DNA of 64,000 bases from Alphaproteobacteria bacterium (GTDB taxonomy: Bacteria; Pseudomonadota; Alphaproteobacteria; Micavibrionales; Micavibrionaceae): NCBI GenBank assembly GCA_033851915.1, contig JAWSVM010000002.1:3742-67741 (forward strand), in the 5' to 3' direction. The notes beneath the pieces were generated by a model, which made no database searches, was not told the DNA's origin, and saw only the letters and a list, made by a program, of their open reading frames with translations. This document shows, in pieces, positions 25,262 through 46,583 of the stretch; position 1 is the stretch's first letter, and each line of letters opens with the position of its first letter. Both the position numbers and the translations under genes were made by a program.

Positions 25262-25410
25262 AGCAACCGCTTTATAGCCTTCCCCCCTTCCACTATAAAA
25301 AAATAGTGATCTTTTAACTATTTCACGTTATACTTATGAGATAGCTATCTTGCTATTTCCTTTTTCCCGATTACTGGGTGTTTCAAATGATACAGATACA
25401 AAAAATAAAT

Positions 25411-25968: not shown

Positions 25969-25997
25969 AAAAGCAAGAATACAAAGGGCTACAGAGC

Positions 25998-28075: not shown

Positions 28076-28092
28076 AAGAGCACCATTCCCTT

Positions 28093-29070: not shown

Positions 29071-29154
29071 CGCGCTATACCGCCCTTTTCGTAAAGATGG
29101 TTTTACAGGCAGAGAAATGAGATGAAGATAGCAGGTTTCGAGAACCGGAGCACA

Positions 29155-29171
29155 GCGTATTCATTATACGC
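29155..29171. repeat. GCGTAT-TCATT-ATACGC hairpin in the tadB-cpaF spacer
   Basis: Read directly. It is a member of the small hairpin family (see findings). Confidence 0.7.
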
Positions 29172-29233
29172 AAGCACCAGAAGCGCAGAAAACTGTTATT
29201 TGTAGGCCATTTATCAAACTGTAACATCATTTT

Positions 29234-30871: not shown

Positions 30872-30918
30872 AATATAACCTTGTTAAAACCCTGTGCGCG
30901 GAAACGCACAAGTTCCCT

Positions 30919-32160: not shown

Positions 32161-32289
32161 ATGTTTTTACCTGTACTCTGCCTGGTCTAGGCATAGAATT
32201 GCTCTTATTATAAAATACTAATGTTCACACTAGCATCCAGCTCTTAACATTCTCCTAATTTTGCGCCGCAATTTATATTAATTCAGCCC

Positions 32290-32940: not shown

Positions 32941-33017
32941 CAGATTATCGCCTTTTGTCTTATTACAAGCAGGTTTTATATTTTTAAGTTTCATGTCGTC
33001 TTCGTCCTATTATGCTT

Positions 33018-34511
33018 TTAGTCAATGATGTAACCGTAATATCCGGCATTCGCGAATACGTCATCATCACCCAGATCAAACATACGTCTGATATTAGCTT
33101 TAAAGATTTTTGATAATTGTGTTTGGTTTTCTTTCGGCACACGCTTCGAATTTTTCTTATCAGCAAACGGCTCAACCAAAGTCGCTGTCACAATAATCAC
33201 CAACTCCGTTTCATTACGCTGGAAACTTTCAGAAGAAATCAATTTACCCAAAATCGGTGTATTTTTAATCCCCGGCAAACCTTTAAACCCTTCAGCTGTC
33301 TGAGATTGCAACAATCCTGCGATCATCAAACTACCGCCACTTGGCATTTCTATCGTCGTATTCGTGCGGCGTATATCAAGCCCCGGAATAGTCAGCCCCG
33401 CCAAAACAACGGCATTACTACTGTCCAGCGATGATACTTCTGTATCAAGTTGTAAATTAATACGGTTACCCGATAGAACAATCGGCTTAAAGTTCAAAGA
33501 AACCCCGAACTCACGAAATTGAACAGTGATGTTACCAAATTGATCACGCCCCGTTGGCACAGGGAATTCCCCGCCTGCAAGGAAACCAGCCTTTTGCCCT
33601 GATACAGCCGTTAAAGTCGGCTCTGCCAAAACACTCAAAAGATTTTGCTCTTCCAACGCTGACAAGAATACCCCGATTTTACCAATACCGTTCAAACCTG
33701 AATCCAGCACAAGTCCCGCCGCACCAATAGCATCTTGTGATAAAGCAAGCCCCGCCGCACCACCAAAATACCCCGCATTTCCATGGTTGGTCAGCGAACT
33801 AACCGGTGTCCGACCAAAAATTGTCGTCACAGACAACTCATTAGGATCATTGGCCACAGTATCAATACCCAACTCTTTCAAGATATTACGTTCAGCTTCA
33901 ATAATTTTCACCTGCAGCATAACCTGCTGTTCACCTTGAACCTCAAGTAAATTCGCAATCAACTCATCCACAGGTGCACCACCACCAAGGTCCTGCAAAT
34001 CACCAACATAGTGACCAACAAGGTTACTGATCTTTGATGCAACATCAGGATTAGAAACACGCCCCGTCAACAAAACCTGATCATGGATAGCACCAACTTT
34101 CACGCTTTCCTCCGGAAACAGGCTGTCCACCAAGCTTTGAATGGCTTGTAAATCATACGATACATGGATATCCAAACGTTTAACCACATTACCGGATGCA
34201 TCCAAAACGATGATATTCGTATCACCAATATTCAGACCCACAATATATAACTTATCGGATTGAACCGCTTGCACATCAACAATGCTCGGATTCGCAACCA
34301 AAACATCGGACACACCAACAGGAAGCGAGACAATATCCGCTTTCCCCAATGTTATAACCAATGGCGGAGCGACCTTCTTGGCTTCCTTAATGGAAATCAA
34401 ATCACCCTTTGACGCATTTGCTTGCTGCACAATGCCGCCAAATGCAACACCGACGGTAACAACAGACGCCAATACCAACGTTCTCGATAGTTTTTTATAT
34501 AAACCTGTCAT
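33018..34511 (-). CDS. cpaC: Tad secretin CpaC/RcpA
   Basis: N-terminal pilus-N domain (LVANPSIVDVQAV...LYIVGLNIGDTNIIV) and C-terminal secretin domain (GGSLMIAGLL...PGIKNTPILGKLISS). Confidence 0.93.
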   Translation of the reverse strand: MTGLYKKLSRTLVLASVVTVGVAFGGIVQQANASKGDLISIKEAKKVAPPLVITLGKADIVSLPVGVSDVLVANPSIVDVQAVQSDKLYIVGLNIGDTNIIVLDASGNVVKRLDIHVSYDLQAIQSLVDSLFPEESVKVGAIHDQVLLTGRVSNPDVASKISNLVGHYVGDLQDLGGGAPVDELIANLLEVQGEQQVMLQVKIIEAERNILKELGIDTVANDPNELSVTTIFGRTPVSSLTNHGNAGYFGGAAGLALSQDAIGAAGLVLDSGLNGIGKIGVFLSALEEQNLLSVLAEPTLTAVSGQKAGFLAGGEFPVPTGRDQFGNITVQFREFGVSLNFKPIVLSGNRINLQLDTEVSSLDSSNAVVLAGLTIPGLDIRRTNTTIEMPSGGSLMIAGLLQSQTAEGFKGLPGIKNTPILGKLISSESFQRNETELVIIVTATLVEPFADKKNSKRVPKENQTQLSKIFKANIRRMFDLGDDDVFANAGYYGYIID

Positions 34512-34585
34512 GGTTCTTTCTTTCACTTTATTTTTAACTACACATAAATTTAATACACAGAGTATGAAGGGGTCGCGCAATATGA

Positions 34586-35470
34586 TTAATGCACGGGGAA
34601 TGTTTGCACTTGCGCGCCGTTATACACCTTCACAGTATTCAGATTAACGCCCGTTTCTTCCTTAAGACGCATAAATTCAGCATGAATTTCATCATCAATT
34701 GTCGTCAGACGCGCATCGGTTAATGTTGGCTCATCTTCATTGACGGCATCATCACCAACACCGCGCATCGCCAGCGTCAACGTCCCCATTTCTGAGGCCA
34801 GAGCCAATGTCTCCGCCGCGCGAATAGGAACTGCAAGTGTCACAGTCTTACCAATTTTTATTTTATCATCCTTCTTTTTCTCTGCCTTTTGGTCAATCGC
34901 CAAGACACGAACATTTTGAAGGATAGTCTCCACCGCCAATTTATCGAGATTCATTTTAACCATATCGCGGATTTGCGGCATTTCATCCTTGCTCACATTC
35001 ACTCTGTGCTTATACGTCAAAATAACATCAACAAAACTGCCCGGTGCAATAAAGCCCGCAACCATATCCTCGGCCGAAACCTTAATTGAAATCGCACGTT
35101 CGCCCTCTTTCAATCTGGCAACAACATAATTCCCTTTAGAGTCTTTCAAGATAGCACGCTTCACAAGTGCCTCTCCTGATCCAAAACTTCTATCCAGACG
35201 ACCTGACAAGGAATCATCAGCATCCTGATCTTCTTCACGAATAATAGCCCCGTTAAACAAGGCTTCTTCATCCCAAGATTTCCAGCGCATATCACCTTCT
35301 TCCAGCTCATGCCCTTTGCGTAAATCCTTCGCCGCGACCAAAATCTCGACTGAATTTGCAGCGACCACTTCCGGCCCCTTTTTTCCACCCAACGTGACCT
35401 GCACAAGAACAGCAACAAGAACTGCTGCTAAAATCGCGCCACCAAGTACAATTAGAATATTCTTATTCAT
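34586..35470 (-). CDS. cpaB: Flp pilus assembly protein CpaB/RcpC
   Basis: N-terminal TM anchor, a SAF-like segment (VLVAAKDLRKGHEL) and an RcpC C-domain. An alternative start lies at 35518. Confidence 0.88.
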   Translation of the reverse strand: MNKNILIVLGGAILAAVLVAVLVQVTLGGKKGPEVVAANSVEILVAAKDLRKGHELEEGDMRWKSWDEEALFNGAIIREEDQDADDSLSGRLDRSFGSGEALVKRAILKDSKGNYVVARLKEGERAISIKVSAEDMVAGFIAPGSFVDVILTYKHRVNVSKDEMPQIRDMVKMNLDKLAVETILQNVRVLAIDQKAEKKKDDKIKIGKTVTLAVPIRAAETLALASEMGTLTLAMRGVGDDAVNEDEPTLTDARLTTIDDEIHAEFMRLKEETGVNLNTVKVYNGAQVQTFPVH

Positions 35471-35624
35471 TTTTTTAAACCCCGTTTCAGGACCTGTAAT
35501 ATTTTGCATGATTAACACTCAGAAGTTAGACTGGCCGAAGCCAAGGAAATAAATAATTGAAACCAAAAGAACCTACAATTAAAGAACTTATATCCTTTAA
35601 TAATATCGGTTGTTTGTTAACAAT

Positions 35625-36194
35625 TCATGAACCTCCCTCAACCACATGTGATGCGACAAATGATCCCAACACATCAGAAGAAAAATAGCCTGCCTGCATA
35701 AAAGCAACAAACATGCCAAAACTAATTGCAACGCCATAAGGCACTTTATCCGCCCCGCCCTGCACCTGCGCAACCCAGCTTCCCTCAACAGGGCTTTCAA
35801 AGGGCTTTTTGCGCTTTATATATAATGCGACAACACCCAAGACACCGCCAAATAACGTCATAAAAAATAAAAAGGTCAGCAATAACTTAACGCTGAACCA
35901 CAGAGCACAAGCCGTCGCAAACTTTGAATCCCCTGCCCCGATCACTCGCATCGCAAATAATCCCAGCGTAACAACAAAGGCCAAAACTGCCGAAATAATA
36001 TGCGACAAGAACGACCCGAACACATCGCTGTGCCCACCAAGATACAACGCACCATACGCAACAAAAAAAGCCGCCATCACATAAAGGCTATAGCTATTCG
36101 GTATGGTCATAGACCGAATATCGGACAGGCCAGCCAGCCCTCCGATCACCAATGTTATGAATACGCATATCAGAAAAATTATAAGTAAGATCAT
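35625..36194 (-). CDS. cpaA: A24-family prepilin peptidase CpaA/TadV
   Basis: Polytopic membrane protein with a GAGDSKF motif, immediately downstream of flp1. Confidence 0.88.
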   Translation of the reverse strand: MILLIIFLICVFITLVIGGLAGLSDIRSMTIPNSYSLYVMAAFFVAYGALYLGGHSDVFGSFLSHIISAVLAFVVTLGLFAMRVIGAGDSKFATACALWFSVKLLLTFLFFMTLFGGVLGVVALYIKRKKPFESPVEGSWVAQVQGGADKVPYGVAISFGMFVAFMQAGYFSSDVLGSFVASHVVEGGS

Positions 36195-36353: not shown

Positions 36354-36527
36354 TTAAAGAGCAGCTGAAACTTCACCAAATAGTGTATTCAGATCTGTAC
36401 CAACAGTAGCAACAGCCACCGCGATAGCAACAGCGATACCCGCTGCGATCAATCCATACTCAATAGCTGTCGCGCCATCTTCGTTGTTTACATATGCTGC
36501 TTTCAATGCGATCAATTTAATTAACAT
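36354..36527 (-). CDS. flp: Flp-family type IVb prepilin (57 aa; below the ORF-track cutoff)
   Basis: My own translation is MLIKLIALKAAYVNNEDGATAIEYGLIAAGIAVAIAVAVATVGTDLNTLFGEVSAAL. It has the G/ATAIEYGL processing motif and an AAGGAGA RBS upstream. Confidence 0.9.
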   Translation of the reverse strand: MLIKLIALKAAYVNNEDGATAIEYGLIAAGIAVAIAVAVATVGTDLNTLFGEVSAAL

Positions 36528-36880: not shown

Positions 36881-37843
36881 TCATTCTGGCTCAATAGCCC
36901 TAAATACAACCCCGCCAGTCTCCCCATCCTTAATTAAAAGAACGATTTTACCGACAAGGTATTTGTCTTGTATATAACCAACCATCGGCATAACACGACT
37001 ATCCAGAGATCTATCCCGATTATCCCCCATAATAAAGTAATGCCCCTGCGGAACCTCAAACAAAACAGTATTATCCAACGGCTCTTCATCAGATTTTTCA
37101 TAGATGCCATGCCTCTTACCCTCGGGCAATGTCTCTATATATTCTTTCACAGTATAAAGCTCACCCTTAGGATCAGGAACCTCAACCTCTCGCACAAATT
37201 CTCTTTCAAGCATTGCCCCATTAATAAACAATCGCCCATTAGTCATCTGGATACGATCCCCCGGCAAACCCACAACCCTCTTTAGATAATCAACACTCGT
37301 ATCCTGCGGTAAAGCAAAGACAATCAAATCACCGCGCTCCGGATCTTTATGAAACCATCTGCTTTTCCATGGACTTATATAAAAAGGGAAAGAATATTGG
37401 CCATAACCATAGGCATACTTACTAGCCAACACAGTATCACCGACATGAATCGTGGGACGCATACTGCCCGCAGGCATGTGCCATGGCTCATACAAAAACG
37501 GCTTAAGCAGAAGTGCCAAAAATAGAAGGACAACAAGACAAGTCATCAATACCGCCACTAACTTGGCATACCAACTTAACGCGTCTTGCTTTAATGTTCT
37601 GGAAAAATACACCGCCTGCAGGGATATCATAAGGGCAACGACAATATCAAAAGCAACAGTCTCCCCTATATACTCAAAATAAAGGAGAGCCATTTGGGCA
37701 CTAAAAAGCACTAAATAAAGTAACGCCCATTTCCAACGGTTCACATACAGCATGCCCAATACAGATCCTGCAAAAAGAGCAACAGGGAAAACAACCCACG
37801 GGGAACGATTTTTAATTAAATTATACAGCCTCATAATAAGCAA
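36881..37843 (-). CDS. lepB: signal peptidase I (S26) with an extended multi-TM N-terminus
   Basis: Catalytic boxes PAGSMRPTI, YLKRVVGLPGD and GDNRDRSLDSR. About 115 hydrophobic residues precede the catalytic Ser. Confidence 0.88.
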   Translation of the reverse strand: MLIMRLYNLIKNRSPWVVFPVALFAGSVLGMLYVNRWKWALLYLVLFSAQMALLYFEYIGETVAFDIVVALMISLQAVYFSRTLKQDALSWYAKLVAVLMTCLVVLLFLALLLKPFLYEPWHMPAGSMRPTIHVGDTVLASKYAYGYGQYSFPFYISPWKSRWFHKDPERGDLIVFALPQDTSVDYLKRVVGLPGDRIQMTNGRLFINGAMLEREFVREVEVPDPKGELYTVKEYIETLPEGKRHGIYEKSDEEPLDNTVLFEVPQGHYFIMGDNRDRSLDSRVMPMVGYIQDKYLVGKIVLLIKDGETGGVVFRAIEPE

Positions 37844-37971: not shown

Positions 37972-38012
37972 TGCAGATTACTCAATTCATAATATGCAGA
38001 TTACTCAATTCA
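37972..38012. repeat. tandem duplication, 23-bp period: TGCAGATTACTCAATTCA at 37972-37989 and again at 37995-38012
   Basis: The 18-bp cores are exact matches. The duplication spans the tadG stop codon (37982-37984). Confidence 0.9.
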
Positions 38013-39415
38013 CGACTAATCGTTTCAAACACATCAATCAAGTCCGACTGGTTTGGTGCATCATGATAGTAATCTTCCGATGTTGCGCATTCGCGGTAAA
38101 AATCTTTGGTGTTTTCATCCACGCCAGAATAGAATGTCACCGTATAAACAATGACCCCATCATTTTTCAGGTTGTCACACACATCCGCAAAACGATCATT
38201 CAAATCACTCGGCGTGATATTATGGTCTTGCGTTGGCCCATACGTCGAATAACGATAATGCATGGTGTTCACACCATCAGTCATCATCACAACGGCTTTA
38301 CGCCAATATTGGTTCGACCATTCAACACCTTCTTCAAATGGTGCTTCAGGTGAAATCACGCGATATCCCCAAACCATACCGTAATTACCATACGTATAAC
38401 CATTCGCCGTCATCGTATCGATAGCATCTTTCAACTCCGTCGGGCTTGTAACAAGCGGGGTTAATGGTGTTCTAGGGCAATAATAGTTAGGCTTGTGGTT
38501 AACATAGAAATGTTCTACCCCACCGGACCAATACGATTCCAAATCACAATACGGCGCATCACTAGAATCCCGACAATAGCGATACATATCCCACGGACCT
38601 GTATGGTCTGTCGTATCATCCGGATCATCATGCGCCAGCACACACCCCATCCAATTGTTATTATTATTAGCTGTCGTATAAGACAACCCATGTGGATTAT
38701 TAACAAACGCGGTGCCATAACTATCACCCGCCTTATCAACCCCCAGCCCATATGGCCCGACATTAACGGAAGAACTATAAGGCACGAGCCCGATTTTAAT
38801 ATAATCCGTATCCCGTGTTGCCATTCCATCCAAAGCAGATGGATCTGCAGCAGCACCGTCTTCAGGATCAATGCCATACATAATATAAACAAAGTTTGAC
38901 GCCGCATCGCGCAAAGCACCAATATTATTATTCGTACTCATAGAACCGGTATTATCCATAACCAGAACAACTTCAATCCCTTGAACTTCACGAATAACCG
39001 TTGTTGCCGCTTCAATATCAATCACAGTAATGCCCAACACGCCCAAGAACAAAGTGTCATACTGCGCCGTTCCCGTCACACGAACCTCATCCCCGACAAT
39101 CACAACACTAGGTGTAAATGTAATGCCCAGCTCTCCCGGTGGATAATTAGCATCAAAAAAATCAAGCACCTTCTGCTCAATAACCGCAGAATCTGTGGAA
39201 GATGCCGCCGCCGCCAGAGCCGCAGCGTCCAAAGCCTGTGCCAAACGTTGCTTCACAAGATAAGCCCGCGAGTAATCCAAAGACACCCCGGCAACCCCAA
39301 CCAGAATAGGTAACATCATCCCAAACATCAGCGCGATAGCACCGGATTTGTTTGACCAATATTTATGAATATTTCCCCACATATTACCCACCTGTTTCAT
39401 AACGTTTCCTTCCAT
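37982..39415 (-). CDS. tadG: TadG-like pseudopilin/pilus-associated protein with a vWA domain
   Basis: TadE/G-like N-terminal helix (GAIALMFGMMLPILVGVAGVSLDYS) and a vWA MIDAS-like VLVMDNTGSMS. Confidence 0.8.
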   Translation of the reverse strand: MEGNVMKQVGNMWGNIHKYWSNKSGAIALMFGMMLPILVGVAGVSLDYSRAYLVKQRLAQALDAAALAAAASSTDSAVIEQKVLDFFDANYPPGELGITFTPSVVIVGDEVRVTGTAQYDTLFLGVLGITVIDIEAATTVIREVQGIEVVLVMDNTGSMSTNNNIGALRDAASNFVYIMYGIDPEDGAAADPSALDGMATRDTDYIKIGLVPYSSSVNVGPYGLGVDKAGDSYGTAFVNNPHGLSYTTANNNNNWMGCVLAHDDPDDTTDHTGPWDMYRYCRDSSDAPYCDLESYWSGGVEHFYVNHKPNYYCPRTPLTPLVTSPTELKDAIDTMTANGYTYGNYGMVWGYRVISPEAPFEEGVEWSNQYWRKAVVMMTDGVNTMHYRYSTYGPTQDHNITPSDLNDRFADVCDNLKNDGVIVYTVTFYSGVDENTKDFYRECATSEDYYHDAPNQSDLIDVFETISRELSNLHIMN

Positions 39416-39448
39416 TTTTTTAATACCCAGTCCTCTGAAAAAACCTTT

Positions 39449-39979
39449 TTACTCATGCGTGATAACAGGCGTTCTCCGCCCGCGGCTAAACGCCACTTCA
39501 TTCATCGTAAAAGGCCCAGAAATAAAACTTGAAAATAATGGCGTATATACATATTTAACAGACACCATCACAACACCCTCATCCTCATCCTCTAATGCCT
39601 CTACCGCAGTAAGAGCATCAGGAAGAGAACTCATATTCACCGTCTCGCGCCATTCAATCGAACTATTTGCATCCTCATCAAAACGAATGCTAACAATATC
39701 TATACCGAAACTACTGCTATCCAACGGCTCAAATGCCAACCGTCCGGCATCTATTGCCGCTGTAACATCAGCGTTAGAAACAACACTGCTTCGTGTGATA
39801 AGGTCGGCAACGACTTGCGACGCACGCACCGTTTTCTGATTTGCCAAAATCGCATTTCCCGCATCAAATACGCCAAGAAAAAGCGTCAGCATAATCGGAA
39901 AAATCATCGCTGCTTCGACGGCCGCAACCCCTTCTTTTCCTTTAACCCATCGGGAGAATATCTTTTTCATTTGAAACAT
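39449..39979 (-). CDS. TadE/TadF-like pseudopilin
   Basis: N-terminal EGVAAVEAAMIFPIMLTLFLGVFD. Confidence 0.8.
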   Translation of the reverse strand: MFQMKKIFSRWVKGKEGVAAVEAAMIFPIMLTLFLGVFDAGNAILANQKTVRASQVVADLITRSSVVSNADVTAAIDAGRLAFEPLDSSSFGIDIVSIRFDEDANSSIEWRETVNMSSLPDALTAVEALEDEDEGVVMVSVKYVYTPLFSSFISGPFTMNEVAFSRGRRTPVITHE

Positions 39980-39981
39980 TA

Positions 39982-40503
39982 TTATGACCCCTGAAATTCA
40001 TATGGTTCTGTTTGAAGAACAATTGTGGACATAAACACCGTTGCCCCGTCCGCACCATTTAAGATTGGACCGACCAGTGGCGTTATCATTGAATATCGAT
40101 ACGATACGCGTATTAACACTTTAGAATTTGACCCACCTGCGTCGAACCCCGATGACACCATCTGGCCACCTGCATCATAAACAGGCGGCGTAAAATCACC
40201 ATATTCATCCAATGTTGTAACCTCGATCACCACGTCGTTGCAATTAATCAACACCACAGCAAATTCACAAAAAGCATCCCGAAACACCGTTTCTGGATCT
40301 TGACCGGATTGTTGAAGTTGCCCTGTTCTGATCAAGCGCGCCGCACTACCGGTTGCACCCTCCAAAAGACTGGCAGAGGTAAACATCAAGGAGAGTTCTA
40401 TAATACCAAGACACAACATAAGGTAAGGCATCAGCAACATACTAAATTCAATTGCCGTCACACCTTCTTCTTTTTTCTTCCACTTATTTAAAAAACGTCT
40501 CAT
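39982..40503 (-). CDS. TadE/TadF-like pseudopilin
   Basis: N-terminal EGVTAIEFSMLLMPYLMLCLGIIELS. ATG 40503 is preceded by an AGGTGGG RBS. Confidence 0.8.
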   Translation of the reverse strand: MRRFLNKWKKKEEGVTAIEFSMLLMPYLMLCLGIIELSLMFTSASLLEGATGSAARLIRTGQLQQSGQDPETVFRDAFCEFAVVLINCNDVVIEVTTLDEYGDFTPPVYDAGGQMVSSGFDAGGSNSKVLIRVSYRYSMITPLVGPILNGADGATVFMSTIVLQTEPYEFQGS

Positions 40504-40568
40504 GTTTAAGGTACCCACCTTTAATTCGAATTTATTTCAAATTTGTTCTTGTTTTAGCGCACAAAAAA

Positions 40569-40583
40569 AGCGGTTAACCCGCT
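40569..40583 (-). terminator. hairpin AGCGG-TTAAC-CCGCT followed on the minus strand by a T7 run
   Basis: The minus-strand reading is AGCGGGTTAACCGCTTTTTTTGTG. It lies downstream of the 4-TM gene and upstream of the tadF-like gene. Confidence 0.55.
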
Positions 40584-40716
40584 ATGTGCCGACATCGGAA
40601 ATACATTTTGCCTAAAAAAATATGCACTCGTCCATTGGATTATTGTAATACGTAAAATATAAAGAATACGTTAATAAATAAGAAAAAAAGCCCAAAACAC
40701 AGACATGCCATCACGG

Positions 40717-41226
40717 TCACTCATCATCTACACCCTCAGGATTTCCAACTTTTCCTGCGATTCCATCCCCCCAATGAGAGATTAAAAACTCCTGTTTTTT
40801 CTTAATCGCATTCATACGCGCCATCCCCTTTTGATACAAATATGAGGAAACAAGCCCCGTCACAACCCAATCAATCATATACCCAAATGCCGCAGCAACA
40901 TAGATAACCATCATAGACTGCGTATCCGTCACAATTGCCATGCTTGCATCAAAAGTGTTTTCCACCGCCCATAACTTCAAGATAAACGGAATACACCCCG
41001 CCGCATTCATCGCAACGATAGTTGATGCACGCGCACCATTGCCACGTTTTCCCATAACAAGAGCAACAATGCTGGGCAGCATTCCAACCCCCAACAGCAT
41101 AGCCGTAGGCAAAAACGCCAGCCCCAATAAAACAAACCCGATCATGAAGAGACGCCCCTTCATACTCATCTTGCCGCCGGAAGCCTTTGATTTCTTTTTC
41201 TTCTCTTTACTCTTCTTTTTCGCCAT
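40717..41226 (-). CDS. Lys-rich N-terminus, 4-TM membrane protein of unknown function
   Basis: MAKKKSKEKKKKSKASGGK is followed by four hydrophobic helices. It sits 18 nt downstream of the pseudokinase gene. Confidence 0.55.
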   Translation of the reverse strand: MAKKKSKEKKKKSKASGGKMSMKGRLFMIGFVLLGLAFLPTAMLLGVGMLPSIVALVMGKRGNGARASTIVAMNAAGCIPFILKLWAVENTFDASMAIVTDTQSMMVIYVAAAFGYMIDWVVTGLVSSYLYQKGMARMNAIKKKQEFLISHWGDGIAGKVGNPEGVDDE

Positions 41227-41244
41227 TAATGATTACACCACATT

Positions 41245-43284
41245 TTAAAAAATCCGATTACCCGAAATAAACGCCAACACAACAATGACCGTAATAACAG
41301 TAGACACCAGCCACGAAACCATCGCCGCCGCATCATGACCGTTCGTCAGCCCATATGTTTTCTTACTGGCAAGTTTCTTGTTGTATTGATTATATTCACG
41401 TTGCAATAATTTATATTCATTCATCGCAATATTAAACCCGTTCTCATCCTTCAATAACGCGTCTTCATCCTCAATTAAAGCAGACATAGAGATAAGGTCA
41501 CCCGCCTTCGCGGCAGCCCTTACATTTTCCTCAATACGTTTTCGCATAACTGTATTTTTATATATTTTATAAACCCCCGACAAAGACTCAACAAAAACAC
41601 CAGCAACAGCAGGAAGAGCTTCAACCTTAGCCCGTCGTTGTAAGGCGGCCATAAAATGTAAATTACCTGATATTTGGCGATCTTTTTCCGTACTATTAAA
41701 GTCCGGCAGAAATGTACTCATCAAACTAGAATCACGCGCCGCGAAAAAAGCCAACAGATGCTTATCCATCATCAAAGAAATCTGCCCGCCCTTCTTACAT
41801 AAAGCCTCAAACGTCAATACTGTAGATTCCGGATTATATACAAAATACCCGCGCAATTTTGGGCTAAAACAAGGTGCATCCGGACATAATGTGTAAATAC
41901 ACCGCTCTATCCCCTGCTCCAATTTTTTCCCAATCAATGCTGAACGACACGCATCATATTGCTTTAATATAGTTAACATCATTGCTTCACTCATTCCCTC
42001 CGCAACCAAAGCATAATCCAGTATATTTAAATTCAAAATCTCTTTAAAAACAGCCATGTCTTTATTTTCATGCGCCGTCTTTGCCAATATTGCGCCCATC
42101 CCGTCATAGGTGAAACACATTCCCTTATAACGTGCAGGCAACACAGGATTCAGTGCAATACCCAGATGGAAAACAAAATAATCATTATTACTTGACGCGT
42201 CATCAAAACTCGAGGCATGCTCTAACGCTTTTTCATATCGCTCAACCATTGCACTATCATCAAGAGCTTTTCTAACCCACCTATCCAAATTGCCATTTTC
42301 TATCAAAACAGAAAGCTCACCCGGGTTATGATGCAGATCAACGGCCAACAGTTCTGCAAAGAAATATTTTTTCCCATTAAGAACCAATGGCCGATTTGCC
42401 TTTTTCTTTTTCATCGAAGTTAATGGCGTTAAACGCACACCATCAAGCCATGACAAAATATCATCAACGTTCCATCTTTGTGTTTCATCATCATACAAAA
42501 CCCCCCTGAGAAGTTCCAGAAAAGAGGCCTGAAGCCGTTCTTTACCAATCAGCGTTGAATAACTCCCGAACTCGACTTTTCTACGCAGTACTTCTTCATC
42601 ACCAAGGGCAGAAAACTCATCATGCTTTCGTAAGAATAAAAATAAACTCACACCAAAAGCATAAATATCATCTTCTATCGTCCCAAAACCACGCCCCATC
42701 GGGTCTGCTAAGGCTTTATTAACAGGTAAAAACAATGGTGATTGCGAACTATGCGCCTGAACAGATAAACCGTCCCCCAACACAATCGTGTTACTGCCCG
42801 CGCCGGGAGGGCAGTATATATTAGATGGTCGAATAGAACCGTGGGAGAATCCCTTATCCCTCATATCCTTCAACATAACCACCATAGGCTCTATAAACAG
42901 CGAAACAATTTCAGGATGCCTCCAGCTAGTGCTGCCAAAGCCCCCCTCTTCAACCAAAGGCGCGCCAACCCCTCCGGTATAAATCACAACAAATTTTTCC
43001 GTATTATCCAGCGGCCAAAACACAGAGCCCGAATCAACCAGATGCATAAAAGACGCATCGTTCAAATTTTTATAAGCTGCCACAGCCGTCCATCGAGGTA
43101 AATTTTCAATGCCTGAAACAATCGCAATAAGTTTCTTCCGCTTATTAACAATACTATGTGCCTCATAAGCCAAAGCCGCCCCGTTATCAAACAGAGGCAA
43201 TCTTTTGTTTGTACTTATAACCAGCTTATTGCCAAAACTAATTTGATTTTGAGAGAGGTTGTCTGATGCACCTGATTTTGCCAT
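41245..43284 (-). CDS. tail-anchored protein with an N-terminal protein-kinase-like (apparently catalytically dead) domain
   Basis: The catalytic-loop-like GFSHGSIRPSNIY (42820-42843 encodes HGSIRPSN) replaces HRDxKxxN. LGDGLS stands in place of DFG. Subdomain IX-like DDIYAFGVSLFLFL is present. No Gly-rich loop is recognisable. A single TM lies at the extreme C-terminus. ATG 43284 has a GGGGGG RBS. Confidence 0.7.
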   Translation of the reverse strand: MAKSGASDNLSQNQISFGNKLVISTNKRLPLFDNGAALAYEAHSIVNKRKKLIAIVSGIENLPRWTAVAAYKNLNDASFMHLVDSGSVFWPLDNTEKFVVIYTGGVGAPLVEEGGFGSTSWRHPEIVSLFIEPMVVMLKDMRDKGFSHGSIRPSNIYCPPGAGSNTIVLGDGLSVQAHSSQSPLFLPVNKALADPMGRGFGTIEDDIYAFGVSLFLFLRKHDEFSALGDEEVLRRKVEFGSYSTLIGKERLQASFLELLRGVLYDDETQRWNVDDILSWLDGVRLTPLTSMKKKKANRPLVLNGKKYFFAELLAVDLHHNPGELSVLIENGNLDRWVRKALDDSAMVERYEKALEHASSFDDASSNNDYFVFHLGIALNPVLPARYKGMCFTYDGMGAILAKTAHENKDMAVFKEILNLNILDYALVAEGMSEAMMLTILKQYDACRSALIGKKLEQGIERCIYTLCPDAPCFSPKLRGYFVYNPESTVLTFEALCKKGGQISLMMDKHLLAFFAARDSSLMSTFLPDFNSTEKDRQISGNLHFMAALQRRAKVEALPAVAGVFVESLSGVYKIYKNTVMRKRIEENVRAAAKAGDLISMSALIEDEDALLKDENGFNIAMNEYKLLQREYNQYNKKLASKKTYGLTNGHDAAAMVSWLVSTVITVIVVLAFISGNRIF

Positions 43285-43516
43285 ATGCCTACCCCCCTTT
43301 TCTACAAGAAAAAGAGCCGACAAAACACGTGTAAGGTAAATGACTGACAGCAAAAATCATAAAGCAACATCCTGTTACATAATATATAATTTTAAAACGA
43401 ATTATCAAAGAAGTATAGGGCTGTGCCCGATTAATCCCGAAGTAATCATAAGCTTATCTCTTTAACGTCTGTATATCCGCTATTATCACGAGAAACAAAT
43501 CAGCAGCGCTAAGCCC

Positions 43517-45043
43517 CTACAACGCTTTCAAATCAACAACAATACGGTGGGAAGATGATATATTCGGGCGTAAAACCATTGTCCCTACGATTCTGGCTTT
43601 ATCCTTCAAACGCACTTCCAACAAGACACTCCCATCCTTTTGCTTACGCGCAATATATGTCCCAAGTAACGTGCTTCCCTTTAACTTATCCTGCGGAGAG
43701 ATATTCCAGCGTGTATTCATAAGCTTCACGCGCAAGACATTACGCAAATCATCCACAGTTACCTTATATTCCGTAACATCGCTGATCTCGATCACAACGC
43801 GGGTTTTATCAGGGTGCATCCCGCTGCGCAAATTCTTCACAAACACAACACGCTTGGAAGCACTTCCATTTTCCAAGACCTTGCGCGGCACCTTTGGCTT
43901 TATGCTTGGCACCGGAACATCAGATACAGATGGCTCATCCACATCAACGTTGGATATTCCGACCATGTCTGTCAAAGCCAGCTTAAATTCAGGTTTCTTA
44001 CTTGGCGGGCGGGCCTTAATTGGCTTCCTCTTGGGAATAACAACACCGTCAATCAATCCATCCGTGGAAGTCTTTATCGAAAGATCAGCATCCGACAATG
44101 CCATCGTGTCATAAGACGAGACAAAAGGCACAGAGGAAACAGACGGCACATATGCATCTCCAACATACGCTTGCACCACCCTTTTACGGGCAGGCATCAC
44201 AGGCGGAATAGCCACACCATCAATCATCCGCACCTTAGAGTCAGAGCGCACAAGCATTACCCCTGCTGTCTTGACCTGCTGCCCCACAGAGGCAGGCGCA
44301 GTATTTCTCCACCTGTTAGGCTTAACCTTAGGCACAATAATGCCACTATCCTCGGACACATCAACATCAAGGACATCAACCTCAAACGCCACAACAGGCG
44401 CAGGATTAAAAGCAGTAGACACAGGTGCAGGTGAAACAGGCTCAGAGGGCACCGTTTCAGGGGATGCAGACTTAAACGTCGGAAACACTTTTTGAAATAA
44501 AGACACATCGCGATTGTCTTCATCATTCTCTACAATATCGTAATCAATGCCATCATCCGGTTTTATTTGTAAAACTCGCAGTTTTCCATCCTGACCACTT
44601 TTCGCATCCGGTTTAAAATGCGGAGACAGGGACTTCATTTTCTTACGCCGCGCCGTATTCACTTTTTTCCGCGCATTCAGATGCGCTTGCGCAGGATCAT
44701 ATTCACGTCCTTTTTCAACAACATTCCAATGCCCATCCGCATCCAACAGCTCTTCACTGCTTACCTGCGCTCTTTTAGTAATCCATGCTGGCTTTCGTTC
44801 AGGCATTGGCGGCTTTTCAGCATTTCGATGTAAAACAGACTCTTCATCATTCCCCTTCCATGACGACGCCGTTGAAGGTGTTAAGGAAGATAACATATCG
44901 GAAAAAGATGATGCATAAACATAAGACGGCAAAACCAGCGTTGATAAAATACACAAACCCAAGAGCAACACCCTGACAGTATTTCTCCCGAACACCATAG
45001 AGCGCCGAGATATGGGCTGCTGAAATGTGTTATGCAATATCAT
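43517..45043 (-). CDS. secreted Pro/Lys-motif protein with a C-terminal AMIN domain
   Basis: Signal peptide (LLLGLCILSTLVLPSYVYA). Repeated P-x-(R/K)-K-P motifs. The C-terminal ~110 aa (HPDKTRVVIEISD...LEVRLKD...HRIVVDL) read like an AMIN domain. An alternative start lies at 44998. Confidence 0.68.
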   Translation of the reverse strand: MILHNTFQQPISRRSMVFGRNTVRVLLLGLCILSTLVLPSYVYASSFSDMLSSLTPSTASSWKGNDEESVLHRNAEKPPMPERKPAWITKRAQVSSEELLDADGHWNVVEKGREYDPAQAHLNARKKVNTARRKKMKSLSPHFKPDAKSGQDGKLRVLQIKPDDGIDYDIVENDEDNRDVSLFQKVFPTFKSASPETVPSEPVSPAPVSTAFNPAPVVAFEVDVLDVDVSEDSGIIVPKVKPNRWRNTAPASVGQQVKTAGVMLVRSDSKVRMIDGVAIPPVMPARKRVVQAYVGDAYVPSVSSVPFVSSYDTMALSDADLSIKTSTDGLIDGVVIPKRKPIKARPPSKKPEFKLALTDMVGISNVDVDEPSVSDVPVPSIKPKVPRKVLENGSASKRVVFVKNLRSGMHPDKTRVVIEISDVTEYKVTVDDLRNVLRVKLMNTRWNISPQDKLKGSTLLGTYIARKQKDGSVLLEVRLKDKARIVGTMVLRPNISSSHRIVVDLKAL

Positions 45044-45120
45044 ACGATAAAAACCTTACTTACTCTATTTAGTCGCGCATCAGTAATATAAATGTCAGGG
45101 CAATTACAAACGCGCCCCCA

Positions 45121-46212
45121 TTAATTACTCTTCTCTGTGCAAACCATCAAGTTTTTTATCAAACGCACATAACGTTCAGGCTTTCTGGAAACAGCCATAT
45201 GCGTCAATAACAAGGCACACCACAAAACCGTCAGCACAACAGGCGGCACGCCCATCGCGATGCCACCATAGCCAATCCCCCCCATCACAGCGACAATCAA
45301 AATAATCGCAACACAGGCACGATGCACTGAAACCCCTGCATCTATAAAATGGTGATGAAAATGCCCGCGATCAGGTGCAAATGGATCTTGCCCCGCACAA
45401 ACACGGCGATAAAACTGCGCACATGTATCAAAAATAGGAAAACCAACAATCCACGCAACAGCGATCGGTTCAATCGGCGTTGCGGGGCCACGCGCCAAAA
45501 GCACGGCAAACCACGCCAGCACAAGCCCCAAAGACATACTGCCCGCATCCCCTAGAAAAAGACTGGCTTTCCTGCGCCAAGGATTGCGTATATTAAAAAT
45601 TAAAAATCCAGCAATGCAGGCAAGCAGCACTCCCAAGACATGCGCAATCTCGAACCACCCCGACACAATACAGGCCACCATAAACCACAAAAACATCACC
45701 GCAGTGACACCGCCGGCCAACCCATCCATACCATCCATTAAATTCACAGAATTAATCAACAAGACAACTGCCACAACCGTAAGCGGATAAGACATCATCC
45801 CCGTCCAAACAACACCAAAGCCAAATAAATCACCAAGATAGGCCGCCTGAACATTGCCCATAAAGGCAATCAATACGGCAGCAAAAATGTGAATAGGAAA
45901 CTTTATTCTTGCATGTAACGAAAACTGATCATCCATAGCGCCCGAAACCAGCAAAACAACCAAAGACACATAAAGCGGCCAATAGACTTGCAAACTAACA
46001 ACACCCGACAAAACGCCAAAAATCATAAATACGGTAAAAATAATCAAACCACCAATCGGTGGAACAGCAAAATCATGATGTTTTCTGCCACCGGGTGCAT
46101 CAACAATGCCAAGCTTACAAGCCAATTTCCTAAACGGCATAACCAACACAACAACCAGCACAAACGCGATCACCGGCATAAAAAGAACTGACAAATTAAA
46201 ATGTTCAAACAT
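45121..46212 (-). CDS. glycosyltransferase family 4 (MraY/WecA-type polyprenyl-phosphate sugar-1-phosphate transferase)
   Basis: Polytopic membrane protein with GAMDDQF, NLMDGMDGLAGG and LGDAGSMSLG motifs. Confidence 0.88.
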   Translation of the reverse strand: MFEHFNLSVLFMPVIAFVLVVVLVMPFRKLACKLGIVDAPGGRKHHDFAVPPIGGLIIFTVFMIFGVLSGVVSLQVYWPLYVSLVVLLVSGAMDDQFSLHARIKFPIHIFAAVLIAFMGNVQAAYLGDLFGFGVVWTGMMSYPLTVVAVVLLINSVNLMDGMDGLAGGVTAVMFLWFMVACIVSGWFEIAHVLGVLLACIAGFLIFNIRNPWRRKASLFLGDAGSMSLGLVLAWFAVLLARGPATPIEPIAVAWIVGFPIFDTCAQFYRRVCAGQDPFAPDRGHFHHHFIDAGVSVHRACVAIILIVAVMGGIGYGGIAMGVPPVVLTVLWCALLLTHMAVSRKPERYVRLIKNLMVCTEKSN

Positions 46213-46347
46213 TATCTATCGTGGCTTCTAATCGTTTAAGAATAGCCAAGATTAACATATGGCAAATGGAACACCAGAAGCTTTTGCCTCTTATGCTATT
46301 CCATCCAGAAAATAAATTTAGGTATTTAAGTAATGATTATACTGAAC

Positions 46348-46509
46348 TTAGAGATGCGATGATATGTTCGTGAAAGTCGCGGTAATATCAACGCCAAGGG
46401 TCGCAACAACCGCACTAATGGCAAGACCGATACCCGCCGCAATCAAACCATATTCAATCGCCGTTGCACCATCATCATCAGAAAAATATTTTTTGAAAAA
46501 TTTATCCAT
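46348..46509 (-). CDS. flp: second Flp-family prepilin
   Basis: MDKFFKKYFSDDDGATAIEYGLIAAGIGLAISAVVATLGVDITATFTNISSHL. ATG 46509 has an AGGA RBS, and the ORF-track start at 46533 is less likely. Confidence 0.85.
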   Translation of the reverse strand: MDKFFKKYFSDDDGATAIEYGLIAAGIGLAISAVVATLGVDITATFTNISSHL

Positions 46510-46583
46510 AACCCCATCCTTTTCTCTATACATCTATTTATACGCCAAAAACTATAATTTTTTGTAAAGATGGAGAGCGCGAA

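What the first reader, a model, noticed from the sequence alone, without database searches (positions are those of the whole stretch)
40717..43284. Tail-anchored pseudokinase plus Lys-rich 4-TM protein: an uncharacterised bicistron inside the Tad pilus locus
A 679-aa protein has an N-terminal domain that reads like a Hanks-type kinase. It carries a catalytic-loop-like GFSHGSIRPSNIY, an LGDGLS where DFG would sit, and a subdomain IX-like DDIYAFGVSLFLFL. The catalytic Asp of HRD is replaced (HGS), and I cannot see a Gly-rich loop or a VAIK Lys. This predicts a pseudokinase scaffold rather than an enzyme. The only hydrophobic segment is at the extreme C-terminus, so the roughly 330-aa central region of unknown fold would face the cytoplasm. 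Eighteen nt downstream is a 169-aa protein with a poly-Lys N-terminus and four TM helices. The pair is bracketed by a 232-nt upstream spacer and an intrinsic terminator (40569-40583), so it looks like a self-contained module. It sits between the pseudopilin genes and the AMIN/WecA/flp2 genes. I know of no canonical Tad component with this architecture. A plausible role is cytoplasmic regulation or positioning of the Tad platform. This is the best candidate in the window for an undescribed accessory system.
Basis: partly seen in the sequence, partly recalled or inferred. Interest (0 to 1): 0.75.

Follow-up and report, generated by a model that had tools for sequence, protein, structure and literature searches.

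The report
Membrane-anchored pseudokinase pair beside Tad genes
Two tightly coupled genes at the head of a Tad pilus cluster in a Micavibrio-like predatory bacterium encode a catalytically dead, tail-anchored protein-kinase look-alike with a large helical domain of no known fold, plus a small membrane partner; the family is large and uncharacterised, and its link to the pilus is plausible but unproven.

Summary
The 679-aa protein (41245-43284, minus strand) has a complete bilobal protein-kinase fold. This rests on an AF2 model (pLDDT 89), 1770 PDB kinase matches, and a family profile that hits titin kinase at E 4.6e-8. None of 70 homologues carries the beta3 Lys or the HRD Asp, and none has a Gly-rich loop, so it is a family-wide pseudokinase. 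Residues ~298-640 form a confidently modelled helical domain with no match in PDB or BFVD. A single C-terminal TM helix anchors the protein.

The 169-aa Lys-rich polytopic membrane protein follows directly in 76 of 77 related loci, with a median gap of 10.5 nt. The pair occurs only in Micavibrio-like MAGs. It precedes tadE-tadF-tadG-flp-cpaA..F in 63 of 70 loci.

The Tad link is weaker than it looks. purA lies upstream in 64 of 80 loci and glmM in 57 of 80, so the whole region is a conserved backbone. When synteny breaks, the pair sometimes stays with purA rather than with Tad. In M. aeruginosavorus ARL-13 the positional orthologues (GMV_525/526) are annotated hypothetical and are transcribed about 100-fold less than the adjacent tadE operon.

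Verdict: this is a real, new variant of a bacterial membrane pseudokinase scaffold. A Tad accessory role is likely (~0.5) but not shown.

The parts
41245..43284 (-). ORF-A: 679-aa tail-anchored pseudokinase (whole gene including stop)
   Evidence: ORF call and translation. 70 full-length homologues. AF2 model with pLDDT 89.2 and pTM 0.84.
42415..43257 (-). ORF-A residues ~10-290: bilobal Hanks-type kinase fold lacking catalytic residues (pseudokinase domain)
   Evidence: Foldseek against PDB gave 1770 hits at E<=1e-3. All 50 listed are protein kinases, including WNK3, CAMK1D, PknA/PknB and ULK1 (TMt 0.6-0.73). The family profile hits titin kinase at E 4.6e-8. 20 of 27 homologues hit Pfam Pkinase. 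Column counts: H148 and G149 in 70/70, no Asp at position 150, V/I/L/M at the beta3 Lys position, N155 in 70/70, D/E171 in 70/70.
41365..42393 (-). ORF-A residues ~298-640: all-alpha cytoplasmic domain (about 17 helices and two small beta-hairpins, ending in a long helix 607-639) with no detectable structural or sequence relative outside the family
   Evidence: AF2 block pLDDT is mostly 84-96. Foldseek found 0 hits at E<=1e-3 in PDB (best E 1.3, TM<=0.24) and 0 hits in BFVD. The profile search against PDB sequences found nothing significant. There are no Pfam or NCBIfam hits. The domain is always found in this same architecture among the top 150 representative clusters.
41266..41343 (-). ORF-A residues 648-673: single C-terminal transmembrane helix (tail anchor). 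It is preceded by a conserved KKTYG..NG.D juxtamembrane motif, and only 6 residues follow it.
   Evidence: DSSP helix 648-673. It is the only Kyte-Doolittle peak (655-673, score 2.57). G645 and G649 are conserved.
40717..41226 (-). ORF-B: 169-aa small polytopic inner-membrane protein with a Lys-rich N-terminal tail, 3-4 TM segments and a basic amphipathic C-terminal tail. It is the obligate partner gene of ORF-A.
   Evidence: ORF call. 74 homologues with no Pfam family. Invariant F38-P40-T41, N74, G77-C78, P80, W86, Y109, G115, G124, R137, W152-G153. It lies directly downstream of ORF-A in 76 of 77 loci. The median gap is 10.5 nt, and 62 of 70 gaps are <=20 nt.
43381..43408 (-). Promoter-like site TTGATA-16-TATATT in the 232-nt spacer upstream of ORF-A
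   Evidence: Consensus scan gave 10 of 12 matches. This is a pattern match only, because the number of such sites in the region does not exceed the shuffle expectation.
40569..40583 (-). Weak intrinsic-terminator-like hairpin (AGCGG-loop-CCGCT followed by T7) in the 198-nt spacer between ORF-B and tadE
   Evidence: Scan and sequence. A spacer of about 200 nt between ORF-B and the first Tad gene is conserved across loci (median 209 nt by tblastn ends). An expression discontinuity is seen at the same position in M. aeruginosavorus ARL-13.
37982..40518 (-). Downstream neighbours tadE (39982-40518), tadF-like (39449-39979) and tadG/VWA (37982-39415): pseudopilin genes that follow the pair in most relatives
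   Evidence: Pfam TadE and Tad hits. Co-linear in 63 of 70 loci.

Best explanation
ORF-A and ORF-B encode a two-protein inner-membrane complex specific to Micavibrio-like predatory bacteria.

ORF-A is a catalytically dead Hanks-type kinase domain fused to a roughly 340-residue helical domain of new fold. A long helix and a C-terminal TM anchor hold both domains on the cytoplasmic face of the inner membrane. ORF-B is a small 3-4-TM protein made from the same, translationally coupled message. It most likely pairs with the ORF-A anchor in the membrane.

The complex most likely acts as a non-enzymatic scaffold or switch that docks, positions or gates the cytoplasmic side of the adjacent Tad (Flp) pilus machine (CpaE/TadZ, CpaF, TadB/C or the TadE/F/G priming complex). 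This would resemble the way the pseudokinase EssB/YukC scaffolds the type VIIb secretion ATPase.

What is shown:
- the kinase fold
- loss of the catalytic residues across the family
- the tail anchor
- the absence of any known fold match for the central domain
- obligate A-B gene coupling
- co-linearity with Tad genes
- a transcription unit separate from tadE

What is inferred:
- A-B physical interaction
- any contact with Tad proteins
- the scaffold or regulatory role
For: - Kinase fold: AF2 pLDDT 89.2, 1770 PDB kinase matches, profile E 4.6e-8 to titin kinase, and Pfam Pkinase hits in 20 of 27 homologues.
- Dead active site in 70 of 70 sequences.
- Central domain has no PDB or BFVD match but is strongly conserved and always in the same architecture.
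- Single C-terminal TM.
- ORF-B follows in 76 of 77 loci with a median gap of 10.5 nt.
- The order pair-tadE-tadF-tadG-flp-cpaA-cpaB-cpaC-cpaD-cpaE-cpaF, on the same strand, is kept in 63 of 70 loci down to 32% identity.
- The pair stays next to flp-cpa even where tadEFG are missing (L043, L045, L065).
- In the window's lineage a second flp gene lies upstream, so Tad-type genes flank the pair on both sides.
- In M. aeruginosavorus ARL-13 the positional orthologues GMV_525/526 are expressed at GEI 0.3-2. This is the same order as the core machine genes (1-10) and unlike the pilin and pseudopilin genes (50-705).
- Precedent for a membrane pseudokinase scaffolding a secretion ATPase: EssB/YukC (PMC11217815).
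Against: - Synteny is not specific to Tad. purA lies immediately upstream in 64 of 80 loci and glmM in 57 of 80, so the whole segment is a conserved backbone in this order.
- When synteny breaks, the pair stays with purA and without Tad genes in L031, L032, L050 and L068, and stands alone in L074.
- Expression of the ARL-13 positional orthologues is not co-regulated with the attack-phase tadE/flp genes.
- There is no homology to any known Tad, T4P or T2SS component.
- No FHA or other phospho-binding partner was detected in the locus.
- No interaction or localisation data exist. Co-folding could not be run.
Confidence: 0.5

Rival explanations
1. The pair is a Micavibrionales-specific membrane pseudokinase module with a role unrelated to Tad pili, for example in envelope, polarity or cell-cycle functions. 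Its position next to tadE would then be only inherited gene order.
For: - glmM-purA-pair-Tad is a conserved backbone: purA upstream in 64 of 80 loci, glmM in 57 of 80. Housekeeping genes are therefore as faithfully linked to the pair as Tad genes are.
- Pair-plus-purA without Tad occurs in L031, L032, L050 and L068.
- The pair is a separate transcription unit, and ARL-13 expression is uncoupled from tadE/flp.
- It has no similarity to Tad components.
Against: - The pair is kept with Tad and without purA in the window, L001-3, L007, L025, L047 and L048.
- It remains adjacent to flp-cpa when tadEFG are absent.
- In the window's lineage additional Tad-type genes (flp2) were inserted on its other side.
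- No alternative conserved neighbourhood appears in the loci where Tad is absent.
Confidence: 0.3
2. ORF-A is an atypical but active kinase or nucleotide-transferase that uses relocated catalytic residues. WNK kinases, for example, place the Lys in beta2. In this reading it phosphorylates Tad or other substrates.
For: - N155 (the catalytic-loop Asn) and an acidic residue at 171 are invariant, and H148 is invariant.
- Position 38 in beta2 is Lys in 32 of 70 members.
- The best Foldseek hit is WNK3.
Against: - No Asp at the HRD position in any of 70 sequences (S/N/A/C/G/Q).
- No beta3 Lys in any sequence.
- Only one Gly in the Gly-loop region.
- Position 38 is Leu in the window protein and in 26 of 70 members.
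- No conserved alphaC Glu.
- The DFG-Asp position is hydrophobic in both available alignments.
Confidence: 0.07
3. The pair is part of an anti-phage defence or mobile element, that is, a kinase-like defence protein.
For: A weak PADLOC hit of ORF-A to MkoA (E 1e-6), restricted to residues 125-341, i.e. mostly the kinase C-lobe.
Against: - The hit covers only the generic kinase C-lobe.
- There are no helicase or nuclease partner genes. ORF-B and the neighbours give no PADLOC hits.
- The chromosomal position next to purA and Tad is stable across an entire order. This is unlike defence islands.
Confidence: 0.02

Closest known systems
EssB/YukC, the membrane pseudokinase of the type VIIb secretion system (Bacillota)
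   Same: It has a cytoplasmic Hanks-type pseudokinase domain tethered to the membrane by a single TM helix. It is encoded with a secretion machine and acts as a non-catalytic scaffold that contacts the machine's ATPase (as summarised in PMC11217815).
   Different: There is no sequence relationship: the Pfam search of the window protein at E<=1 returned nothing, and 27 homologues hit only the two protein-kinase families at E<=0.01. EssB has a sizeable extracellular C-terminal domain, whereas ORF-A has only 6 residues beyond the TM. ORF-A instead carries a ~340-aa cytoplasmic helical domain between the pseudokinase and the anchor. It lies next to Tad genes in a Gram-negative organism and has a dedicated 3-4-TM partner gene.
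Active Hanks-type Ser/Thr kinases (bacterial PknA/PknB/StkP; eukaryotic CAMK, titin and WNK families)
   Same: It has the same bilobal fold (Foldseek TMt 0.6-0.73 over ~280-300 columns) and detectable profile homology (E 4.6e-8). It conserves the structural C-lobe motifs: H-G..N in the catalytic loop, D206-x-Y-x-x-G211 of subdomain IX, and R270 of subdomain XI.
   Different: The beta3 Lys, HRD Asp, Gly-rich loop and in-register DFG Asp are all missing family-wide. The window protein itself falls below Pfam detection.
Pseudokinase domain of mycobacterial MviN/MurJ and similar bacterial pseudokinase scaffolds (from my own knowledge, not tested here)
   Same: A degenerate kinase domain attached to a membrane protein is used as a docking platform rather than as an enzyme.
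   Different: There the domain is fused to a polytopic flippase and is regulated through phosphorylation by PknB and binding of an FHA protein. No kinase, phosphatase or FHA partner was found near ORF-A.
Accessory positioning or regulatory factors of Tad and T4P machines: TadZ/CpaE, PodJ and ZitP-CpaM in Caulobacter (from my own knowledge); FHA-rich Kil system of Myxococcus (PMC8460266)
   Same: These are lineage-specific, non-core cytoplasmic or bitopic proteins encoded with or acting on Tad-like machines, including predatory ones. That is the role proposed here.
   Different: None of them is kinase-like. There is no sequence or fold similarity, and the role of ORF-A/B is inferred only from gene context.

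Membership tests
Protein kinase-like superfamily (Hanks-type fold) | Bilobal kinase fold: five-stranded N-lobe with alphaC, and a helical C-lobe | tested here: met
   In the AF2 model, strands at 14-57 and 82-103, helix 65-72 and the C-lobe helices have pLDDT mostly above 90. Foldseek gave 1770 PDB matches at E<=1e-3, and all 50 listed are protein kinases.
Protein kinase-like superfamily (Hanks-type fold) | Significant sequence-profile match to Pkinase (PF00069) | tested here: inconclusive
   The window protein has no Pfam hit at E<=1. 20 of 27 homologues hit PF00069 (best E 5.8e-9), and the family profile hits titin kinase and CDPK at E 5e-8 to 1e-5.
Catalytically active Ser/Thr/Tyr protein kinase | Beta3 (VAIK) lysine | tested here: not met
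   Position 56 is V44/I24/L1/M1 in 70 sequences.
Catalytically active Ser/Thr/Tyr protein kinase | Catalytic Asp of the HRD motif | tested here: not met
   H148 and G149 are invariant. Position 150 is S43/N10/A9/C3/G2/Q2 and never Asp.
Catalytically active Ser/Thr/Tyr protein kinase | Gly-rich (GxGxxG) loop | tested here: not met
   Only G35 is conserved in the beta1-beta2 turn, within FDNG.
Catalytically active Ser/Thr/Tyr protein kinase | DFG aspartate | tested here: inconclusive
   The motif is V/I-L-G-D/E. In the titin alignment D171 is at DFG+1, and in the StkP alignment it falls on the DFG Gly. The DFG-Asp column is a gap in one alignment and L169 in the other. An invariant acidic residue is nearby (D53/E17).
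Catalytically active Ser/Thr/Tyr protein kinase | Catalytic-loop Asn (metal ligand) | tested here: met
   N155 is present in 70 of 70 sequences. This is compatible with residual nucleotide or metal binding, as in many pseudokinases.
Canonical Tad/Flp pilus components (Flp, TadV/CpaA, RcpC/CpaB, RcpA/CpaC, CpaD, TadZ/CpaE, TadA/CpaF, TadB, TadC, TadD, TadE, TadF, TadG) | Sequence homology to one of the component families | tested here: not met
   Pfam and NCBIfam give no Tad, T2SS or T4P family for ORF-A or ORF-B. All the canonical components are identified separately elsewhere in the locus.
Canonical Tad/Flp pilus components | Conserved co-linearity with the Tad gene cluster | tested here: met
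   63 of 70 evaluable loci are co-linear. The caveat is that purA and glmM are equally syntenic.
EssB/YukC T7SSb pseudokinase | N-terminal cytoplasmic pseudokinase plus a single TM | tested here: met
EssB/YukC T7SSb pseudokinase | Extracellular C-terminal domain. Also sequence membership of the YukC family, and a T7SS (EssC/WXG100) gene context. | tested here: not met
   Only 6 residues follow the TM. The Pfam search of the window protein at E<=1 returned nothing, so no YukC family match. The neighbours are Tad genes, not T7SS genes.
Anti-phage defence kinases (Mokosh MkoA-like) | Full-length match to the defence protein and presence of its partner genes | tested here: not met
   The PADLOC MkoA hit (E 1e-6) covers only residues 125-341 of the query and positions 123-330 of a 1112-position profile. 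There are no partner hits.

The most novel reading that the evidence does not exclude
The pair is a previously unrecognised, order-specific control module of a predatory Tad machine. In this reading a tail-anchored pseudokinase with a new helical fold, held in the membrane with a 4-TM partner, recruits or gates the CpaE/CpaF/TadBC platform at the prey-contact pole of epibiotic Micavibrio-like predators. It would be the alphaproteobacterial counterpart of the FHA-based control layer of the deltaproteobacterial Kil system, and a Gram-negative analogue of EssB in T7SSb.
Probability: 0.3. Interest if true: 0.72.

Novelty: new variant of a known kind. Interest (0 to 1): 0.55.

Why it matters
Tad pili are implicated in contact-dependent predation (Kil system, PMC8460266; BALO Tad pilins, PMC5430801). 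In Micavibrio the flp pilin is among the most highly transcribed attack-phase genes (PMC3189940). How such machines are positioned and triggered is unknown, and nothing is known for the alphaproteobacterial predators.

This work defines a large family: more than 1200 50%-identity clusters, all named 'hypothetical' wherever a source gives a name. Its members are membrane-anchored pseudokinases with a confidently predicted domain that has no relative in PDB, plus an obligate small membrane partner, sitting at the head of the Tad cluster.

If the Tad link holds, the family offers a concrete handle (two genes, a predicted scaffold) for studying pilus control in predation. It would also be a second independent example, after EssB, of a dead kinase recruited as a structural part of a trans-envelope machine. 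If the link does not hold, it is still a new bacterial pseudokinase architecture and a candidate new fold worth defining as a protein family.

Tried and rejected
1. Single-sequence searches of ORF-A against Pfam, NCBIfam and PDB gave nothing significant: no Pfam hit, LanL at E 0.056, StkP at E 0.3. Only the family profile and the predicted structure revealed the kinase fold.
2. The C-terminal region (res 288-679) matched nothing. The profile search against PDB sequences gave a best E of 0.077 to an MCP fragment. Foldseek against PDB and BFVD gave 0 hits at E<=1e-3. No AlphaFold-DB library was available.
3. ORF-B matched nothing either. The profile search against PDB gave 0 hits. Pfam scans of 26 homologues gave only scattered, inconsistent weak hits. 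NCBIfam gave only a noise hit to an ATP synthase a-subunit at E 0.019.
4. I considered a defence-system reading because of a PADLOC MkoA hit, and rejected it because the hit covers only the generic kinase C-lobe and the gene context is core-genome.
5. I considered a WNK-like relocated lysine, because the top Foldseek hit is WNK3 and K38 is present in 32 of 70 members. I rejected this for the window protein, which has L38, and in any case the catalytic Asp is absent throughout.
6. I looked for FHA, PP2C or active-kinase partners among the locus proteins and found none by Pfam.
7. Literature searches for Micavibrio plus pseudokinase (0 papers) and for pseudokinase plus Tad pilus or type IV pili found no description of this family.
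8. I tried to confirm the ARL-13 orthologues by cluster names, but no names were on record. Orthology of GMV_525/526 therefore rests on size and on the purA-x-x-tadE position only.
The DFG register and surface conservation could therefore not be examined, and co-folding of A with B or with Tad proteins could not be run.
Full report
**1. What is in the sequence**

Both genes lie on the minus strand. ORF-A runs from ATG 43284 to stop 41245 (679 aa). ORF-B runs 41226-40717 (169 aa) and starts 18 nt after the ORF-A stop.

The ATG of ORF-A has a GGGGGG Shine-Dalgarno about 8 nt upstream. Homologues begin at the equivalent Met, so the 679-aa reading is preferred over the 702-aa TTG extension.

The 232-nt spacer upstream holds a promoter-like TTGATA-16-TATATT at 43408-43381. 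The 198-nt spacer downstream holds a weak hairpin (5-bp stem plus T7) at 40583-40569.

The only hydrophobic segment of ORF-A is 655-673, six residues from the end.

ORF-B begins MAKKKSKEKKKKSK. It has hydrophobic peaks at 26-44, 70-88 and 105-125, plus a likely fourth at 45-66.

**2. Locus map**

The surrounding locus, all on the minus strand, reads in the direction of transcription:
- flp2, 46348-46533
- a GT4 (MraY/WecA-family) transferase, 45121-46212
- a 508-aa secreted Pro/Lys-rich protein whose AMIN match is below threshold (E 0.068), 43517-45043
- ORF-A, then ORF-B
- tadE, a tadF-like gene and tadG/VWA, 37982-40518
- a signal peptidase I gene, 36881-37843
- flp1, 36354-36527
- cpaA, cpaB, cpaC, cpaD, a cpaE-like ParA/MinD gene, cpaF, tadB and tadC, 27122-36194

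**3. ORF-A is a kinase-fold protein**

The single sequence is undetectable: no Pfam hit, and the PDB best hit is StkP at E 0.3. However, it has 70 full-length homologues at 31-82% identity.
- A 27-sequence profile hits titin kinase at E 4.6e-8, followed by twitchin and CDPKs.
- 20 of the 27 homologues individually hit Pfam Pkinase, best E 5.8e-9.
- An AF2 model built on the 70-sequence alignment has mean pLDDT 89.2 and pTM 0.84.
- Foldseek against PDB returns 1770 matches at E<=1e-3. All 50 listed are protein kinases (WNK3, CAMK1D, PknA/PknB, ULK1), with target-normalised TM 0.6-0.73 over about 280-300 columns.

The N-terminal ~290 residues are therefore a complete bilobal kinase fold.

**4. 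It is a pseudokinase across the whole family**

Column counts over the 70 sequences show the following:
- The beta3 'VAIK' Lys position is V/I/L/M in all 70.
- The HRD triplet is H(70)-G(70)-[S/N/A/C/G/Q] and never Asp.
- The Gly-loop region keeps a single Gly (FDNG).
- There is no conserved alphaC Glu.
- The DFG-equivalent reads V/I-L-G-D/E. Two independent alignments place the invariant acidic residue one or two positions beyond the DFG-Asp position, and the DFG-Asp column is a gap in one and L169 in the other.
- Retained residues are H148, N155, the subdomain IX D206-x-Y208-x-x-G211 and R270-W271. These form the structural skeleton of the C-lobe plus one potential metal ligand.
- Lys at position 38 in beta2 (a WNK-like position) occurs in only 32 of 70 members and is Leu in the window protein.

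Canonical phosphotransfer is therefore very unlikely. Residual nucleotide binding cannot be excluded.

**5. The rest of ORF-A**

Residues ~298-640 are modelled confidently (block pLDDT mostly 84-96) as about 17 helices and two small beta-hairpins. They end in a long helix (607-639), a short low-confidence linker, and the TM helix 648-673.

A separate model of residues 288-679 (pLDDT 87) found nothing in PDB: 0 hits at E<=1e-3, best E 1.3, TM<=0.24. It found nothing in BFVD either. The sequence profile has no significant PDB match, and there is no Pfam or NCBIfam family.

An exhaustive HMM search of 1.84 billion representatives with this region found 1472 clusters at E<=1e-3 and 1238 at E<=1e-10. 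Among the best 150, all full-length proteins are 660-740 aa with the domain starting near residue 290, so the architecture is fixed.

With no N-terminal signal, a basic juxtamembrane stretch (KKLASKKTYG) and six residues beyond the TM, the protein is tail-anchored with everything in the cytoplasm. The orientation is inferred from the positive-inside rule.

**6. ORF-B**

It has 74 homologues, no consistent Pfam family and no PDB relative. Conserved features include an F-L-P-T turn between the first two hydrophobic stretches, N74/G77-C78/P80 in the third, A-A-F-G-Y-M-I-D-W in the last, and a basic amphipathic C-terminal tail ending in W-G.

The charge distribution fits an N-in, C-in topology with four TM segments. 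No topology predictor was available to confirm this.

**7. Distribution and gene context**

A scan of one genome per GTDB species found 158 loci encoding a relative. The best 80 are all MAGs labelled Micavibrio, Alphaproteobacteria or Rhodospirillales, or Bdellovibrionales/Pseudobdellovibrionaceae. The last two labels are where NCBI taxonomy places Micavibrio.

tblastn of the window's proteins against these 80 loci shows:
- ORF-B lies directly after ORF-A in 76 of 77 evaluable loci. The only exception is L026.
- The gap between the ORF-A stop and the ORF-B ATG has a median of 10.5 nt, and 62 of 70 gaps are <=20 nt, some overlapping. The two are an obligate, probably translationally coupled, pair.
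- Tad genes follow on the same strand within 5 kb in 63 of 70 loci. The usual order is tadE-tadF-tadG-flp-cpaA-cpaB-cpaC-cpaD-cpaE-cpaF, conserved down to 32% ORF-A identity.
- In L043, L045 and L065 tadEFG are missing and the pair abuts flp-cpaA directly.

**8. Why the synteny is weaker evidence than it looks**

The genes upstream of the pair in the window (508-aa protein, GT4, flp2) are shared only with the closest relatives (L001-3, L007, and partly L025). In 64 of 80 loci the gene immediately upstream is purA, and glmM lies further upstream in 57 of 80.

So glmM-purA-pair-Tad is a generally conserved backbone in this order, and a housekeeping gene is as faithfully linked to the pair as Tad is.

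Where the order breaks, both outcomes occur:
- purA-pair without Tad genes: L031, L032, L050, L068.
- Pair-Tad without purA: the window, L001-3, L007, L025, L047, L048.
- L074 has neither. L058 keeps only a TadG-like gene after the pair.

No alternative conserved neighbourhood appears. I therefore treat the Tad association as suggestive, not demonstrated.

**9. Independent expression data**

The supplement of the M. aeruginosavorus ARL-13 genome paper (PMC3189940) lists the following genes in order, with gene expression index in the attack phase and in the attachment phase:

| Gene | Annotation | Size | GEI attack / attachment |
|---|---|---|---|
| GMV_524 | adenylosuccinate synthetase | | |
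| GMV_525 | hypothetical | 2148 bp | 0.8 / 1.6 |
| GMV_526 | hypothetical | 522 bp | 0.3 / 2.0 |
| GMV_527 | tadE-like | | 86.9 / 9.8 |
| GMV_528 | | | 50.1 / 4.7 |
| GMV_529 | | | 77 / 9.5 |
| GMV_530 | flp | | 705 / 385 |
| cpaA to tadC | | | about 1-20 |

By size and position (purA-x-x-tadE, the arrangement of 64 loci here), GMV_525/526 are the orthologues. I could not verify this by sequence.

Three conclusions follow:
- The family has been annotated only as hypothetical.
- The pair is not co-transcribed with tadE.
- The pair is expressed at a low level. That level is closer to the machine's core genes than to the strongly attack-induced pilin and pseudopilin genes.

**10. Most likely mechanism**

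Shown: a dead kinase fold and a new helical domain held at the cytoplasmic face of the inner membrane by a tail anchor, always co-encoded with a small polytopic membrane protein.

Inferred:
- ORF-B partners the anchor in the membrane.
- The cytoplasmic domains serve as a docking or switch platform.
- The client is the adjacent Tad machine, namely the CpaE/TadZ-CpaF-TadB/C platform or the TadE/F/G priming complex.

The closest functional precedent is EssB/YukC. It is a membrane-tethered pseudokinase that scaffolds the T7SSb ATPase through a phosphorylation-independent contact (PMC11217815). Tad-like machines used in predation are known to carry lineage-specific control layers, such as the FHA proteins in the Myxococcus Kil system (PMC8460266). 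I put 0.5 on this reading.

Rivals and their confidence:
- Same module, but with a function unrelated to Tad and passive synteny: 0.3.
- An atypical active enzyme: 0.07.
- A defence system: 0.02.

**11. Comparison with known families and novelty**

ORF-A belongs to the protein-kinase-like fold superfamily. It fails the tests for an active kinase. It is not a member of any canonical Tad family, nor of the EssB/YukC family: there is no sequence match, no extracellular domain and a different machine.

No paper in the searchable library describes a Hanks-type pseudokinase linked to Tad or type IV pili, or this Micavibrio family.

I rate it a new variant of a known kind. The known kind is a bacterial membrane pseudokinase scaffold. 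The new features are a central domain without a known fold match, a dedicated partner protein, and restriction to a predatory order.

Interest is moderate to high (0.55). The objects are real, widespread in metagenomes and structurally new, and they offer a testable entry point into control of a probable predation pilus. However, the functional link is not established, and a degenerate kinase used as a scaffold is not in itself surprising.

Noticed in passing
window 36881-37843 (-): A signal peptidase I (Peptidase_S26, E 2e-43) gene lies between tadG and flp1 inside the Tad cluster. It has a roughly 100-aa hydrophobic N-terminal extension. Among the 80 related loci only L001 shows a partial match there, so it looks like a recent insertion in this lineage.
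   Followed up: partly
window 43517-46533 (-): A second flp pilin gene (46348-46533), a GT4 MraY/WecA-family transferase (45121-46212) and a 508-aa secreted Pro/Lys-rich protein with a sub-threshold AMIN-like C-terminus (E 0.068) form a block. It is shared only with L001-3, L007 and partly L025. It replaces purA as the upstream neighbour of the pseudokinase pair. It could be a pilin-glycosylation or accessory cassette.
   Followed up: partly
L004-L080 (e.g. L031 8436-9728; L032 7136-9821): glmM and purA lie just upstream of the pseudokinase pair in most Micavibrio-like genomes (purA in 64 of 80, glmM in 57 of 80). This shows unusually stable local gene order across an order whose ORF-A proteins have diverged to ~32% identity.
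   Followed up: yes
window 25378-26675 (+): Downstream of tadC and on the opposite strand lie a 196-aa protein with a secretin-type T2SS-T3SS_pil_N domain (E 5e-13) and a 225-aa TPR protein (TadD-like). These are probably further Tad accessory genes.
   Followed up: no
window 29234-30871 (-): The CpaF/TadA ATPase is 545 aa, and its T2SSE domain starts only at residue 191. The ~190-aa N-terminal extension has no Pfam match (no FHA). It would be a candidate contact site for an accessory scaffold.
   Followed up: no
window 40519-40716 and PMC3189940 supplement 4 (intergenic89, upstream of GMV_527): The ~200-nt spacer between ORF-B and tadE is conserved in length across loci. In M. aeruginosavorus ARL-13 a short intergenic segment flanking GMV_527 (tadE-like) is listed among separately quantified expressed intergenic regions. 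This hints at a 5' leader or small RNA at the tadE promoter.
   Followed up: no
window 5654-7525 (+), 7824-9248 (-), 19545-21332 (-), 24683-25261 (+): Four sizeable ORFs (623, 474, 595 and 192 aa) have no Pfam family (searched at E<=1e-5 for the first two and E<=0.01 for the last two). The window also holds a DUF3095 protein (535-1713), a FecR-domain 762-aa protein (10615-12903) and a YjbH-family protein (16113-18224).
   Followed up: no
whole window: GC skew is negative in every 2-kb bin (-0.02 to -0.29) and the cumulative skew falls monotonically. The window therefore contains no replication origin or terminus. G+C is about 45%.
   Followed up: no
L026 9941-12546: This is the only evaluable locus in which the pseudokinase gene is not followed by the small membrane-protein gene. 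A reverse-strand deaminase-like ORF follows instead, and no Tad genes are nearby.
   Followed up: partly
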